IMG/VR virus record: IMGVR_UViG_2703718793_000006
DNA: 4,061 nt
Direction: 5' to 3' (one strand)
Origin: a virus
Lineage: Duplodnaviria; Heunggongvirae; Uroviricota; Caudoviricetes
The notes under the pieces are model-generated. The model searched no databases. It saw only the letters and a program-made list of their open reading frames with translations, and was not told the DNA's origin. Both the position numbers and the translations under genes were made by a program. Shown piece after piece: positions 1 through 4,061 of this stretch; within the stretch, counting starts at the first letter, position 1; every line of letters starts with the position of its first letter.

Positions 1-26
1 ACACAGTCGTCTGTCGGCGGAGGTAA
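1..26 (+). CDS. 3' end of an upstream ORF (possibly terminase large subunit), partial; the stop could be TAA 24-26 or TAG 28-30 in a different frame
   Basis: Two reading frames run open from the window edge to a stop just before the portal start (TAA 24-26; TAG 28-30, which overlaps the GTG at 30). Only about 9 codons are visible, so the product cannot be identified. The terminase suggestion is based solely on the usual HK97-like gene order (terminase - portal - protease - capsid). Confidence 0.2.
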
Positions 27-29
27 ATA

Positions 30-1047
30 GTGTTCTTTTCGGGATTATTTCAACGAAAAAGTGACGCGCCGGTGACCACGCCAGCAGAACTGGCGGATGC
101 TATCGGGCTGTCATATGACACCTATACCGGAAAGCAGATCAGCAGCCAGCGGGCCATGCGACTGACGGCGGTTTTTTCCTGCGTCAGGGTGCTGGCAGAG
201 TCGGTCGGGATGTTGCCCTGCAATCTGTATCACCTGAACGGCAGCCTGAAACAGAGAGCCACCGGCGAACGTCTGCATAAGCTGATCTCCACGCATCCCA
301 ATGGCTATATGACGCCGCAGGAGTTCTGGGAGCTGGTGGTCACCTGTCTGTGCCTGCGGGGAAACTTTTATGCTTACAAAGTGAAAGCATTTGGCGAAGT
401 GGCTGAACTGCTGCCCGTCGATCCTGGCTGTGTGGTGCCGAAGCTTAACAGTAGCTGGGAGCCGGTCTATCAGGTCACATTCCCGGACGGTNNNNNNNNN
501 NNNNNNNNNNNNNNNNNNNNNNNNNNNNNNNNNNNNNNNNNNNNNNNNNNNNNNNNNNNNNNNNNNNNNNNNNNNNNNNNNNNNNNNNNNNNNNNNNNNN
601 NNNNNNNNNNNNNNNNNNNNNNNNNNNNNNNNNNNNNTGTTCCGGGTGCCGTTGCACATGGTGCAGAACACCGATCGCGCCACCTTCAACAATATCGAAG
701 AGCTGGGGCTCGGATTTATCAACTATTCACTGGTGCCGTATCTGACCCGCATCGAACAGCGGATCAACACCGGACTGGTACGAAAAAGTAAGCAGGGCGT
801 TTATTACGCCAAATTTAACGCCGGGGCGTTACTGCGCGGGGATATGAAGTCCCGTTTTGAAGCCTACGCCACCGGGATTAACTGGGGAATTTACTCTCCC
901 AATGACTGCCGCGACCTGGAAGATATGAATCCGCGTCCCGGTGGTGATGTCTATCTCACACCGATGAACATGACCACGAAACCCTCCGATGGCAGTAAAG
1001 CCGGTAAGCAGAAGGATAACGCCAATGCAGACGAAACAACGTCTTGA
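30..1047 (+). CDS. Phage portal protein, HK97 family (interrupted by an N-run at 492-637; N-terminal part in frame 30.., C-terminal part in frame ending at TGA 1045-1047)
   Basis: GTG start at 30 preceded by GGAGG (19-23) with a 6-nt spacer. The N-terminal translation (…RAMRLTAVFSCVRVLAESVGMLPCNLYHL…LRGNFYAYK…) and the C-terminal translation (…ATFNNIEELGLGFINYSLVPYLTRIEQRI…YYAKFNAGALLRGDMKSRFEAYATGINWGIYSPNDCRDLEDMNPRPGGDVYLTPMNM…) resemble the conserved N- and C-terminal blocks of HK97-type portals (Phage_portal-like). The two halves are in different frames across the N-run, so the true length is not defined by this window. Confidence 0.85.
492..637. other. Run of 146 ambiguous bases (assembly gap or masked sequence) inside the portal gene
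   Basis: Uninterrupted n characters from 492 to 637. The flanking coding frames differ (frame of 30 versus frame of 1047), so the N count does not equal the true missing length in a multiple of 3, unless the gene is disrupted. Confidence 0.95.
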
Positions 1048-1675
1048 TGTACCGCTGAGTCTGAAATCTGTCAGTGACTCCGGTGAGTTTGAAGGGTATG
1101 GCTCCGTCTTTGGTGTAAAGGACAGCCACGATGATGTGGTGATGTCCGGGGCATTTGCTGCTTCCCTGCGGGCGTGGAGTGACAGAAAAGCGTTACCTGC
1201 GCTGCTCTGGCAGCACCGCATGGATGAACCCATCGGTGTTTACACCGAAATGAAGGAAGACGATGTCGGGCTTTACGTCAAAGGACGGTTGCTTATTGAT
1301 GATGATCCCCTCGCAAAACGCGCACATGCACACATGAAGGCCGGTTCGTTAACCGGCCTTTCTATTGGGTACGTCCTGAAAGACTGGGAATACGACCGGA
1401 GCAAAGAAGCCTTTCTGCTGAAAGAAATCGACCTCTGGGAAGTCAGCCTGGTGACGTTCCCGTCTAACGACGAGGCGCGGATCAGTGACGTCAAGAACGC
1501 ACTGGCCCGCGGGGAAATTCCCGAACAGAAAAAAATCGAAAGAGTCCTGCGTGATGTCGGACTCTCCCGTACCCAGGCCAAAGCATTCATGGCCGGGGGC
1601 TATGGCGCACTGTCCCTGCGCGACGCTGAGGATGTGGGCTCTGCACTGAATGCACTAAAAAATCTGAACTTCTAA
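1025..1675 (+). CDS. Prohead maturation protease, HK97 family (peptidase S78-like)
   Basis: ORF in frame 989..1675. I prefer the ATG at 1025 because GAAGGA (1011-1016) lies 8 nt upstream, while the ATG at 989 has no Shine-Dalgarno. The translation has 'GEFEGYGSVFGVKDSHDDVVMSGAF' (candidate His in an Asp-rich context) and 'GSLTGLSIGY' (candidate Ser nucleophile), typical of HK97 gp4-like prohead proteases. The start is nested in the 3' end of the portal gene; stop is TAA 1673-1675. Confidence 0.88.
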   Translation: MQTKQRLDVPLSLKSVSDSGEFEGYGSVFGVKDSHDDVVMSGAFAASLRAWSDRKALPALLWQHRMDEPIGVYTEMKEDDVGLYVKGRLLIDDDPLAKRAHAHMKAGSLTGLSIGYVLKDWEYDRSKEAFLLKEIDLWEVSLVTFPSNDEARISDVKNALARGEIPEQKKIERVLRDVGLSRTQAKAFMAGGYGALSLRDAEDVGSALNALKNLNF

Positions 1676-1689
1676 TCAGGAGAAATACG

Positions 1690-2895
1690 ATGGCGGTTGA
1701 TATTAAAGATGTGGAACAGGTCGCGCAGGAGCTGCAGCAGAAGTTTGACGACTTCAAAGCAAAGAACGACAAGCGCGTTGAGGCGATTGAGCAGGAAAAA
1801 GGCAAACTTGCCGGGCAGGTGGAAACCCTGAACGGAAAACTCAGCGAGCTGGAAAATCTCAAAAGCGACCTTGAAAAAGAGCTGCTTGAGCTGAAACGTC
1901 CGGCAGGTGGTGCGCAAAATAAACTGGCCACCGAGCATAAAGAGGCGTTTGTGGGCTTCCTGCGTAAAGGCCGTGAAGACGGTCTGCGCGATCTGGAGCG
2001 TAAGGCATTGCAGGTGGGCACCGATGAAGACGGTGGCTATGCCGTGCCGGAAGCACTGGATCGCAACATTCTCAACCTGCTGAAAGATGAAGTGGTGATG
2101 CGCCAGGAAGCCACGGTGATCACCGTTGGCGGTTCCGACTACAAAAAACTGGTGAATCTGGGCGGCACGGCTTCCGGATGGGTTGGCGAGACTGACGCGC
2201 GCTCCCAGACTGCCACCTCAAAACTGGGACTGATTGAACCTTTCATGGGGGAAATCTACGGTAACCCGCAGGCCACCCAGAAAATGCTGGATGATGCCTT
2301 TTTCAACGTGGAGGCCTGGATCAACAGCGAGCTGGCAACCGAATTTGCCGAACAGGAAGAAATTGCCTTTACCACCGGCGATGGTACCAAGAAGCCGAAA
2401 GGGTTCCTGGCGTATGAATCCACTGATGAAACCGACAAGGTCCGGGCATTCGGCAAACTTCAGCATATTGTATCCGGCGAAGCGACGGCAGTGACTGCAG
2501 ATGCCATTATCAAACTGATTTACACGCTGCGTAAGGCACACCGCACCGGCGCGAAGTTCATGATGAACAACAACAGCCTGTTTGCCATTCGTCTGCTGAA
2601 AGACACCGAGGGTAACTATCTGTGGCGTCCGGGGCTGGAGCTGGGGCAGCCGTCCTCTCTGGCGGGTTACGGTATCGCTGAAAACGAACAGATGCCGGAT
2701 ATTGCCGCTGATGCGAAAGCCATTGCATTTGGTAACTTCAAACGGGGTTACACCATCGTTGACCGTATCGGTACCCGCATTCTGCGTGACCCGTACACCA
2801 ATAAACCGTTTGTCGGTTTTTATACCACCAAGCGCACTGGCGGCATGCTGGTCGATTCGCAGGCCATCAAACTGCTGAAGATTGCAGCGGCGTAA
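1690..2895 (+). CDS. Major capsid protein, HK97 fold, with N-terminal coiled-coil delta (scaffolding) domain
   Basis: AGGAG at 1678-1682, 7 nt before ATG 1690. 401 aa. The first ~100 residues are strongly charged and heptad-like (…QELQQKFDDFKAKNDKRVEAIEQEKGKLAGQVETLNGKLSELENLKSDLEKELLELKRP…), as expected for a delta domain. They are followed by a region resembling HK97-type capsid proteins (…GTDEDGGYAVPEALD…, …YLWRPGLELGQPSSLAGYGI…, C-terminal …KPFVGFYTTKRTGGMLVDSQAIKLLKIAAA). It follows directly after portal and protease with no separate scaffold gene. Confidence 0.92.
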   Translation: MAVDIKDVEQVAQELQQKFDDFKAKNDKRVEAIEQEKGKLAGQVETLNGKLSELENLKSDLEKELLELKRPAGGAQNKLATEHKEAFVGFLRKGREDGLRDLERKALQVGTDEDGGYAVPEALDRNILNLLKDEVVMRQEATVITVGGSDYKKLVNLGGTASGWVGETDARSQTATSKLGLIEPFMGEIYGNPQATQKMLDDAFFNVEAWINSELATEFAEQEEIAFTTGDGTKKPKGFLAYESTDETDKVRAFGKLQHIVSGEATAVTADAIIKLIYTLRKAHRTGAKFMMNNNSLFAIRLLKDTEGNYLWRPGLELGQPSSLAGYGIAENEQMPDIAADAKAIAFGNFKRGYTIVDRIGTRILRDPYTNKPFVGFYTTKRTGGMLVDSQAIKLLKIAAA

Positions 2896-2902
2896 TCATT
2901 CA

Positions 2903-2924
2903 GGGGGCGCAGAAGTGCGCCCCT
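2903..2924 (+). terminator. GC-rich stem-loop immediately downstream of the capsid gene (putative intrinsic terminator, attenuator or mRNA 3'-stabiliser)
   Basis: Perfect inverted repeat GGGGCGCA (2904-2911) / TGCGCCCC (2916-2923) around a GAAG tetraloop (2912-2915), 8 nt after the capsid stop. The downstream tract GTTCTG is T-poor, so this is not a canonical strong rho-independent terminator. Confidence 0.4.
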
Positions 2925-2945
2925 GTTCTGACAGGTGAAAGAATC

Positions 2946-3134
2946 ATGATCCTGAAACAAGATCTGAAATGGTCACCGGACGGTATACGTGTTGAGATTA
3001 TTCGGGCCGGTGAGTATGAAGATAAAGAATTACCCGAACGGGTACGCGAAATTGCCATTGCAGCTGGGATTGTCTCTGATAAGAGAACACCTGTTGCGCG
3101 GGGGGCTGATAAGTCTAAAAAACAGCATTCATAG
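2946..3134 (+). CDS. Hypothetical small protein (62 aa), unknown function, between the capsid and head-tail connector genes
   Basis: ATG 2946 preceded by AGGTGA (2933-2938) with a 7-nt spacer; stop TAG 3132-3134 lies 11 nt before the next gene. Same strand and packing as the neighbours. I recognise no family from MILKQDLKWSPDGIRVEIIRAGEYEDKELPERVREIAIAAGIVSDKRTPVARGADKSKKQHS. GC is lower than in the head genes. Confidence 0.5.
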   Translation: MILKQDLKWSPDGIRVEIIRAGEYEDKELPERVREIAIAAGIVSDKRTPVARGADKSKKQHS

Positions 3135-3145
3135 AGGTTGCCCAA

Positions 3146-3451
3146 ATGATGCCCACTCTGGAAGAGCTTCGTGTTCAGTGCCGGATTGATGATGACAATG
3201 AACAGGAGAATTCTCTTCTTATGATGTATCTGGCTGCCGCCAGGGAAGAGGCTGAAAAGTTTTTAAACCGGACGCTTTACGATGAAACTGTTTCTGAGCA
3301 GGATGCGACCGGGCTTGTAATAACACCTCTGATAAAACTGCGTCTTATGCAACTGGTTGGCTACTGGTACGAGAACAGGGAAATGCAGGATGCAGTGCCT
3401 GATTTTTTCTATACCGGACTGCGGATGTATCGGTTTCATCCCGGAACATAG
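3146..3451 (+). CDS. Head-tail connector protein, gp6-like (Phage_connect_1-type; also annotated as DNA-packaging/head completion protein)
   Basis: ATG 3146 with AGAGG (3133-3137) upstream. 101 aa. The N-terminus 'MMPTLEELRVQCRIDDDNEQENSLLMMYLAAAREEAEKFLNRTL' matches the characteristic '…LEE(L/V)KxHLRIDxDDED…L…AAREY(I/A)E…' signature of gp6-like connectors. Stop TAG 3449-3451. Confidence 0.85.
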   Translation: MMPTLEELRVQCRIDDDNEQENSLLMMYLAAAREEAEKFLNRTLYDETVSEQDATGLVITPLIKLRLMQLVGYWYENREMQDAVPDFFYTGLRMYRFHPGT

Positions 3452-3459
3452 GAGGATTC

Positions 3460-3798
3460 ATGCAGGCAGGAAGATTACGTGATCGTGTGGTTATTCTGAA
3501 TGCCACCACCGTTCGGTCTCCATCAGGGCACCCTGTGGAAACAATGACGGAGGGGGCAACCATATGGGCAGAAGTTAAGGGGATCAGTGGCAGGGAGAGA
3601 ATATCCGGAGGCGCAGAAACTGCTCAGGCTACAGTGAGGGTCTGGATGAGATTCCGGCGAGATGTGACAGCAACTTCATGTCTGAAAGTGCTGACTGGTG
3701 CATTCAAAGGCGCGATTCTGAGTATAGACGGTCCGCCGATACCGGATGCCCGTGCCACCCGGCTTGAGATACTCTGTTCTCAGAAGGGGAATGTGTGA
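3460..3798 (+). CDS. Head closure / head-tail adaptor protein (Phage_H_T_join-type, SPP1 gp16 / HK97 gp7-like)
   Basis: GGAGG at 3451-3455, then ATG 3460. 112 aa starting 'MQAGRLRDRVVILNATTVRSPSGHPVETMTEGATIWAEVKGISGRE…', which matches the 'M.AG.LRHR(V/I).(I/L)Q…' N-terminus and size typical of this family. Stop TGA 3796-3798 overlaps the next start. Confidence 0.85.
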   Translation: MQAGRLRDRVVILNATTVRSPSGHPVETMTEGATIWAEVKGISGRERISGGAETAQATVRVWMRFRRDVTATSCLKVLTGAFKGAILSIDGPPIPDARATRLEILCSQKGNV

Positions 3799-4061
3799 TG
3801 GATTTCAGTCTTGATTTTTCAGGTCTGGCGGATATTGCACGGGATCTGGAGACGCTCAGCAGGGCAGAAAATAATAAGGTACTGCGCGATGCCACCCGTG
3901 CCGGTGCTGAAGTTATGCGGGATGCAGTTGTTGAACGTGCGCCGGAGCGAACCGGGAAACTGAAGAAAAATGTGGTTGTTCTCACTCAGCGTTCAAAGCG
4001 TCGGGGGGAAATTATCTCGGGTGTCCACATTCGTGGACGGAACCTGCGAACCGGAAACAGT
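3798..4061 (+). CDS. HK97 gp10-family protein (neck / tail-completion component), 3'-truncated by the window end
   Basis: ATG 3798 overlaps the upstream TGA (TGATG); AAGGGGA (3784-3790) is 7 nt upstream. There are 88 open codons to the window edge: MDFSLDFSGLADIARDLETLSRAENNKVLRDATRAGAEVMRDAVVERAPERTGKLKKNVVV…, resembling the N-terminal pattern of the HK97 gp10 family. This ORF is not in the supplied track because it has no in-window stop. Confidence 0.8.
   Translation, partial: MDFSLDFSGLADIARDLETLSRAENNKVLRDATRAGAEVMRDAVVERAPERTGKLKKNVVVLTQRSKRRGEIISGVHIRGRNLRTGNS

What the first reader, a model, noticed from the sequence alone, without database searches (positions are those of the whole stretch)
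492..637. Portal gene broken by an N-run with a frame mismatch
The portal N-terminal half reads in the frame of position 30 and the C-terminal half in the frame ending at 1047. The span 30..1047 is 1018 nt, not a multiple of 3. So the 146 Ns do not represent the true missing length, or the gene carries a real frameshift or insertion. The visible portal (about 154 + 136 aa) is also shorter than I would expect for an HK97-type portal, which suggests a larger missing segment. The gap could hide an insertion or a pseudogenising lesion, not just a sequencing hole.
Basis: partly seen in the sequence, partly recalled or inferred. Interest (0 to 1): 0.4.

Follow-up and report, generated by a model that had tools for sequence, protein, structure and literature searches.

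The report
Mis-sized scaffold gap in portal gene
The break in this phage portal gene is an assembly gap whose 146 placeholder Ns stand for 370 real bases; with those bases restored the gene is a normal, intact 413-residue portal, so there is nothing biological to explain.

Summary
The window has one N-run, at 492-637 (146 N). The portal reads in two frames on either side of it: 30..1047 is 1018 nt, which leaves a remainder of 1 when divided by 3.

A public contig (L031) is identical to all 3915 determined bases of the window and has 370 nt between the flanks. Then 462+370+410 = 1242 nt, one ORF of 413 aa. It covers the whole Pfam Phage_portal profile and aligns to the 424-aa HK97 portal.

The 370-nt spacing recurs:
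- 37 of 38 loci carrying both flanks
- 28 of 28 IMG/VR contigs
- nearly all sampled complete E. coli genomes

No scanned collection has a 146-nt spacing.

An IMG/VR contig, identical to the window over 1-491, begins exactly at base 491. That marks the spot as a contig end. The first and last hidden bases are both polymorphic in this phage family. This fits assembly-graph branch points between co-resident, near-identical prophage copies, but that cause is inferred.

I found no evidence for a hidden insertion or pseudogenising lesion. It cannot be strictly excluded for this isolate. The finding is ordinary and of low interest.

The parts
30..491 (+). Portal gene, 5' part: codons 1-154, GTG start
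   Evidence: Same start as the annotated 'phage portal protein' CDS in L001 and L041. Pfam PF04860 profile positions 2-104, E 1.3e-23. 491/491 bases identical to L031.
492..637 (.). Scaffold-gap placeholder: 146 N standing for 370 nt (codons 155-277 plus the first base of codon 278)
   Evidence: Searches give the coordinates. Searches show 370 nt between the exact flanks in 37 of 38 loci; about 126 Pfam profile positions are hidden. IMG/VR contig L046 begins exactly at window base 491.
638..1047 (+). Portal gene, 3' part: last two bases of codon 278, codons 279-413, stop at 1045-1047
   Evidence: Pfam PF04860 profile positions 231-321, E 1.1e-29. Collinear with the annotated portal CDS end in L001.
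1025..1675 (+). HK97-family prohead protease; overlaps the portal 3' end by 23 nt (context)
   Evidence: Pfam PF04586 Peptidase_S78, E 1.7e-31. Annotated at the equivalent position in L001.
1690..2895 (+). Major capsid protein (context)
   Evidence: Pfam PF05065, E 3.1e-79. The exact protein occurs on contigs that all carry a 413-aa portal wherever the portal is in view.
2946..4061 (+). Downstream head-completion genes, all intact: 62-aa ORF 2946-3134, head-tail connector 3146-3451, head closure 3460-3798, HK97-gp10-like 3798 to the window end (context)
   Evidence: ORFs. Annotations at equivalent positions in L001 and Pfam labels in L031.

Best explanation
The N-run is a scaffolding gap between two contigs of a draft assembly. 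Its length of 146 is the scaffolder's distance estimate, not a base count. The real sequence there is 370 nt of ordinary portal coding sequence, so the gene is an intact 1242-nt, 413-aa HK97-family portal. The apparent frame mismatch (224 nt missing, 224 mod 3 = 2) is purely an artefact. The likely cause of the contig break is inferred, not shown. The source genome probably carries a second, near-identical copy of this prophage head module. The assembly graph then branched at two sites where the copies differ (the first and last hidden bases). The short piece in between was dropped, and paired reads bridged the two outer contigs with an estimated gap.
For: Shown:
(1) L031 (Logan SRR1981207 contig 81) equals the window at 491/491 and 3424/3424 determined bases and has 370 nt between them. 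Window flanks plus this segment equal its portal CDS: 1242 nt, one stop at the end, 413 aa.
(2) The spacing is 370 nt in 37 of 38 loci with both flanks and in 28 of 28 IMG/VR contigs (span 415 = 21+370+24). Complete E. coli genomes span 1924 nt for query 1-1700 in nearly every full-length row sampled and 4285 nt for the whole window. All 9 contigs that encode the identical capsid protein and have the portal in view carry a 413-aa portal.
(3) Independently of close relatives, Pfam places the two halves at profile positions 2-104 and 231-321. About 126 positions are therefore hidden, which matches 123 codons and not 49. The rebuilt protein covers profile 2-321 (E 1.4e-107) and aligns to the 424-aa HK97 portal 8cez/8fql over residues 27-385 (E 3.3e-51).
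(4) No record with a 146-nt spacing exists in viral, genome or metagenome contigs. Within the window itself a pattern N matches a literal N.
(5) IMG/VR contig IMGVR_UViG_2675903366_000013 (L046) starts exactly at window base 491 and is 100% identical over 1-491, so this base is a real contig end.

Supporting the inferred cause:
- The first hidden base (G in 3 loci plus the reference L031, T in 137) and the last hidden base (C 136, T 5) are both polymorphic in the family. The last one is the only variable site between reference positions 836 and 900.
- Genomes hold up to 5 copies of this module.
- E. coli 377323_2f has two copies differing at 32 positions in 7.9 kb.
- There are no internal repeats or hairpins in the region, and GC is 59%.
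Against: The joining 370 nt were read from other assemblies, not from the isolate behind the window. Identity of the flanks does not prove identity of the hidden part. The scaffold the window comes from could not be retrieved, so the assembler and the meaning of its gap sizes are unknown. The coincidence of the gap edges with polymorphic sites is only moderately unlikely by chance. It is about 0.5% if only sites with a minor-allele count of at least 2 are counted (7.2% of sites) and about 1.6% if any variable site is counted (12.7% of sites). Only about a third of other real contig ends in this module fall next to a variable site. One public relative, phi467, does carry a different length here (343 nt).
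Confidence: 0.93

Rival explanations
1. The N-run preserves length (for example low-quality or masked bases), so the isolate really has only 146 nt here. That would be a 224-nt out-of-frame deletion making the portal a pseudogene in a decaying prophage.
For: The literal reading is out of frame. Real portal truncation exists in this family: the K-12 e14 element keeps only window-equivalent 1-436, fused to a baseplate gene remnant. One copy in E. coli 377323_2f is annotated as frameshifted.
Against: No record with 146-nt spacing was found in three large collections, among 38 loci, or in the sampled complete genomes. All determined bases are identical to a contig with an intact gene. All seven neighbouring head genes are intact. 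An independent contig ends exactly at base 491, which is what an assembly break looks like.
Confidence: 0.03
2. The gap hides an insertion, such as an IS element, a homing-endonuclease or intron-like element, or another repeat. The insertion broke the short-read assembly and disrupts or modifies the portal gene.
For: Repeated mobile elements are a common cause of contig breaks. The hidden length is unknown for this isolate. An HNH endonuclease gene lies in the same phage module upstream.
Against: With a simple insertion, the two contig ends would be adjacent, or would overlap by a target duplication, in the intact gene. Here they are 370 nt apart, so an insertion plus loss or non-assembly of flanking portal sequence would be needed. 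None of the roughly 140 related loci (at least 95% identical) shows any insertion in this interval.
Confidence: 0.03

Closest known systems
Portal proteins of the SfI / SfII / SfIV / ST64B / phi467 / e14 group of enterobacterial temperate phages (annotated 'phage portal protein', 413 aa, for example WP_000466258.1 and WP_097756681.1)
   Same: The flanks are 97-100% identical in DNA. Gene order is the same: terminase, 60-aa ORF (ymfR-like), portal, S78 protease, capsid. The rebuilt protein differs from WP_000466258.1 only at residue 155, Ala versus Ser.
   Different: Only the 370 nt that are undetermined in the window. Nothing in the determined bases differs.
Bacteriophage HK97 portal gp3 (PDB 8cez / 8fql, 424 aa), Pfam PF04860 Phage_portal
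   Same: The rebuilt protein aligns over residues 27-385 at E 3.3e-51 and covers the whole Pfam profile. It is followed by an S78 prohead protease and an HK97-fold capsid protein.
   Different: It is a distant homologue by sequence and 11 residues shorter. The hidden segment (residues 155-278) corresponds to the central, well-conserved part of the alignment (GLVGL...RKFQ..E), which the window simply lacks.
Truncated portal pseudogene of the E. coli K-12 e14 element
   Same: It is the same gene family, 97% identical over window 1-436. It is an example of a real lesion in this portal.
   Different: In e14 the gene stops at codon 136 and is fused to a baseplate J remnant, with the protease and capsid genes deleted. 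In the window the 3' part of the portal and all downstream head genes are present and collinear.

Membership tests
HK97-family phage portal (Pfam PF04860) | Significant match to the family profile above the curated cut-off (39.1 bits) | tested here: met
   The left half scores 84.2 bits, the right half 104.1 bits and the rebuilt protein 360.1 bits.
HK97-family phage portal (Pfam PF04860) | One continuous ORF covering the whole profile at a normal length of about 400-425 aa | tested here: inconclusive
   This is not readable in the window itself, where profile positions 105-230 are hidden by Ns. It is met in L031, which is identical to all determined bases: 413 aa, profile 2-321 of 321.
HK97-family phage portal (Pfam PF04860) | Position in a head-morphogenesis module: terminase upstream, prohead protease and major capsid protein directly downstream | tested here: met
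   S78 protease at 1025-1675 and capsid at 1690-2895. TerL lies upstream in L001, L031 and L046.
HK97-family phage portal (Pfam PF04860) | Assembles as a dodecameric ring at one capsid vertex | not testable with these tools
   Inferred only from homology to the solved HK97 portal.
Assembly (scaffold) gap | An uninterrupted run of N whose flanks are collinear with an intact reference sequence | tested here: met
Assembly (scaffold) gap | The gap edge coincides with a contig end in an independent record | tested here: met
   L046 (IMG/VR contig, range 1-4102) starts at window base 491 and is 100% identical over 491 nt. A matching record for the right edge was not found.
Assembly (scaffold) gap | The N count is an estimate that disagrees with the true distance | tested here: met
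   146 N against 370 nt in relatives. No sequence with 146-nt spacing was found anywhere scanned.
Pseudogene / decayed prophage gene | A frameshift, premature stop or truncation visible in determined bases | tested here: not met
   There is no indel, stop or substitution relative to the intact L031 gene in any determined base. The frame offset arises only from counting the Ns.

The most novel reading that the evidence does not exclude
In this particular isolate the hidden stretch is not the standard 370 nt. It would instead hold a real structural variant of the portal's conserved central region, such as an insertion of a mobile element or a deletion like the 27-nt one recorded in the Stx2f phage phi467, and that variant is what broke the assembly.
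Probability: 0.04. Interest if true: 0.25.

Novelty: not a real feature. Interest (0 to 1): 0.03.

Why it matters
It matters only for annotation hygiene. A gene caller will report two portal fragments or a 'frameshifted' pseudogene here, and a prophage-completeness tool could score this prophage as defective. The evidence says the head module is intact. It is also a small worked example of two points. N-run lengths in draft scaffolds should not be used for reading-frame arguments. The expected hidden length can be estimated from a family profile alone: the Pfam positions missing between the two halves.

Tried and rejected
(1) I tried to retrieve the window's own scaffold. The exact flank-N146-flank pattern gave no hits in viral, genome or metagenome contigs. 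The left-flank 34-mer gave no hits in genome contigs. A window-specific 47-mer from the right part found only L016 in viral contigs. The source assembler is therefore unknown.

(2) I looked for an intrinsic cause of the break in the hidden segment. There are no direct or inverted repeats in L031:2000-3500. The longest homopolymer is 4 and GC is 59%. An intrinsic cause is rejected.

(3) I tested whether contig ends in this module generally sit next to polymorphic sites. Roughly 5-6 of about 19 true contig ends do, against a 7-13% background. This is suggestive, not decisive. BLAST end-trimming and IMG/VR provirus trimming confound it.

(4) I considered that 224 = 2(k-1) might reveal the assembler's k-mer size. 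It gives k=113, which is not a usual value, so I dropped it.

(5) I considered the e14-type deletion as the explanation. It is rejected because its breakpoint is at window 436 and it removes the downstream head genes, which are present here.

Full report
**Observation.** The window holds a single run of ambiguous bases, 492..637, exactly 146 N.
- Upstream, a GTG at 30 opens a reading frame that runs cleanly to 491: 462 nt, 154 codons.
- Downstream, the frame that ends with the stop at 1045-1047 begins with two bases of a split codon at 638-639, followed by 135 sense codons.
- 30..1047 is 1018 nt, remainder 1 on division by 3. Read literally, the two halves are out of frame.
- The long ORFs 30..791 and 391..1047 arise only from translating N as X.
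- Each half on its own is a significant match to Pfam PF04860 Phage_portal. The left half covers profile positions 2-104 and the right half 231-321.

**What should be in the gap.** The window is the head module of a very common enterobacterial temperate phage group. The first 1700 bases match 1397 complete E. coli records, mostly at 95-99% identity. They also match phages phi467, SfI, SfII, SfIV and ST64B.
- In nearly all full-length rows listed, the query 1-1700 spans 1924 nt in the subject. The whole window spans 4285 nt. Both are 224 nt more than the window.
- Direct alignment with E. coli F719 (L001) shows the flanks abutting a 370-nt segment, with no other rearrangement.
- All 28 IMG/VR contigs carrying both exact flanks have the same 370-nt spacing.
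- Across 38 loci with both flanks, 37 have 370 nt and one (phi467) has 343.
- 462+370+410 = 1242 nt, the length of the annotated 'phage portal protein' CDS (413 aa) in these records.

**Closest available resolution.** A look-up of the window's exact capsid protein returned contigs that all carry a 413-aa portal wherever the portal is in view (9 of 9).
- One of them, L031 (Logan assembly of SRR1981207, contig 81), is identical to the window at every determined base: 491/491 on the left and 3424/3424 on the right.
- Inserting its 370 nt between the window's flanks reproduces its portal CDS exactly. That CDS is one ORF with one terminal stop.
- The product matches the entire Pfam profile (positions 2-321 of 321, E 1.4e-107). 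It aligns to the solved 424-aa HK97 portal (8cez/8fql) over residues 27-385, E 3.3e-51.
- The hidden residues are 155-277 plus the first base of codon 278. They are the conserved centre of the protein.
- The Pfam coordinates alone predict about 126 hidden positions. That fits 123 codons and cannot fit 146/3, about 49.

**Why the N count is wrong.** These points are shown:
- No record in the viral, genome or metagenome collections has the flanks 146 nt apart. Within the window itself a pattern N matches a literal N.
- An IMG/VR contig (IMGVR_UViG_2675903366_000013, L046) starts exactly at the base corresponding to window 491. It is 100% identical over the 491 nt. So position 491/492 is a genuine contig end in a public draft assembly.
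- The hidden segment has no repeats, hairpins or homopolymers, and its GC content is unremarkable.

This part is inferred: the break was probably caused by a second, near-identical copy of the module in the same genome.
- Genomes hold up to 5 copies. E. coli 377323_2f has two copies differing at only 32 positions in 7.9 kb.
- The first hidden base (G in 3 loci plus the reference L031, T in 137) and the last hidden base (C 136, T 5) are both polymorphic in the family. The last one is isolated in an otherwise invariant stretch.
- In a de Bruijn graph, a shared contig ends at the base just before a site where two copies differ. That is exactly what is seen at both edges.
- The piece of about 368 nt between the two sites would fall under common minimum-contig cut-offs. 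A scaffolder would then bridge the outer contigs with an estimated number of Ns.
- The chance that both edges touch variable sites is roughly 0.5% to 1.6%, depending on which sites are counted. This is suggestive, not conclusive.

**Rivals.**
- A length-true N-run would mean a real 224-nt deletion and a pseudogene. That spacing was found in none of the three scanned collections, the 38 loci or the sampled complete genomes. All determined bases equal those of an intact gene. The seven neighbouring head genes are intact.
- A hidden insertion does not fit the geometry. Insertion-induced breaks leave the contig ends adjacent in the uninterrupted gene, whereas these are 370 nt apart. None of the roughly 140 related loci shows an insertion there.
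- Real lesions do occur in this gene family. The K-12 e14 element keeps only the first 136 codons, fused to a baseplate remnant. That breakpoint and its consequences differ from what is in the window.

I give each rival about 3%.

**Comparison with known systems, and verdict.** The gene is an already-known HK97-family portal, essentially identical to catalogued proteins. It differs from WP_000466258.1 only at residue 155, Ala versus Ser. The 'feature' flagged, a frame mismatch across the N-run, is not biological. The speculative lesion or insertion is unsupported. The feature is not real, and interest is very low (0.03). The only residual uncertainty is that the joining sequence was read from other assemblies and not from this isolate. 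A single PCR across the gap, expected at about 455 bp, would settle it.

Noticed in passing
L002 (phage phi467, LN997803.1) about 3560-3580; equivalent to the hidden segment of the window: The Stx2f-converting phage phi467 (PMC7366253) has a portal CDS of 1215 nt (404 aa). A +1 / -28 nt change inside the same central region replaces NPVAYAREAISLAAAT with KSRRAAT in a conserved part of the HK97-portal alignment. It is the only one of about 140 related loci with this change. It is either a record error or a surprising viable deletion.
   Followed up: partly
window 1-4061; L002: The window's head module is 99-100% identical to that of the Stx2f phage phi467. Its closest chromosomal matches include several STEC strains, such as STECUZB006, 2015C-4136CT1 and H1827/12. 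The window may come from an Stx2f-type prophage or a toxin-less relative. This cannot be told from the window.
   Followed up: no
L151 1530-1937 (E. coli BW25113, e14 element); window 1-436: K-12 strains carry a genuine truncated copy of this portal: the first 136 codons at 97% DNA identity, fused to a baseplate J/gp47 remnant, with the protease and capsid genes deleted. The 60-aa ORF that ends at window 30 is the homologue of ymfR.
   Followed up: yes
L041 and L042 (E. coli 377323_2f, two chromosomal sites): One complete genome holds two copies of the whole head module that differ at 32 positions in 7.9 kb. One copy has its portal and protease annotated 'frameshifted' because of single-base indels at L041 positions 3422, 4007 and 4753. 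These may be long-read errors or early decay.
   Followed up: partly
L032 from about 5330 onwards; window about 3018: The same portal-protease-capsid block (capsid protein 100% identical) is joined in L032 to a contractile-tail module (sheath, tube). In L031 and the window's lineage it is joined to a siphovirus-type tail (tail tube, chaperones, tape measure). Similarity to L032 ends near window 3018, inside the 62-aa ORF. Only 251 of 1946 matching E. coli records cover at least 80% of the whole window. This is ordinary phage mosaicism.
   Followed up: no
window 2904-2923: A GC-rich hairpin (GGGGCGC-AGAAGT-GCGCCCC) followed by TGTTCTG lies just after the capsid gene stop. The terminator scan did not flag it because the T-run is weak. 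It may be a partial terminator or an RNA-stability element after the most highly expressed head gene.
   Followed up: no
L043 (contig end at reference position 820), L010 (1159), L020 (2300), L040 (1506), L108 and L050 (238/239): Several other draft contigs of this phage family end inside the portal-to-capsid region. Some end immediately next to family-polymorphic sites. Two contigs from one genome (IMG 638341085) end at the same spot. This suggests that multi-copy prophages commonly break assemblies of this module.
   Followed up: partly
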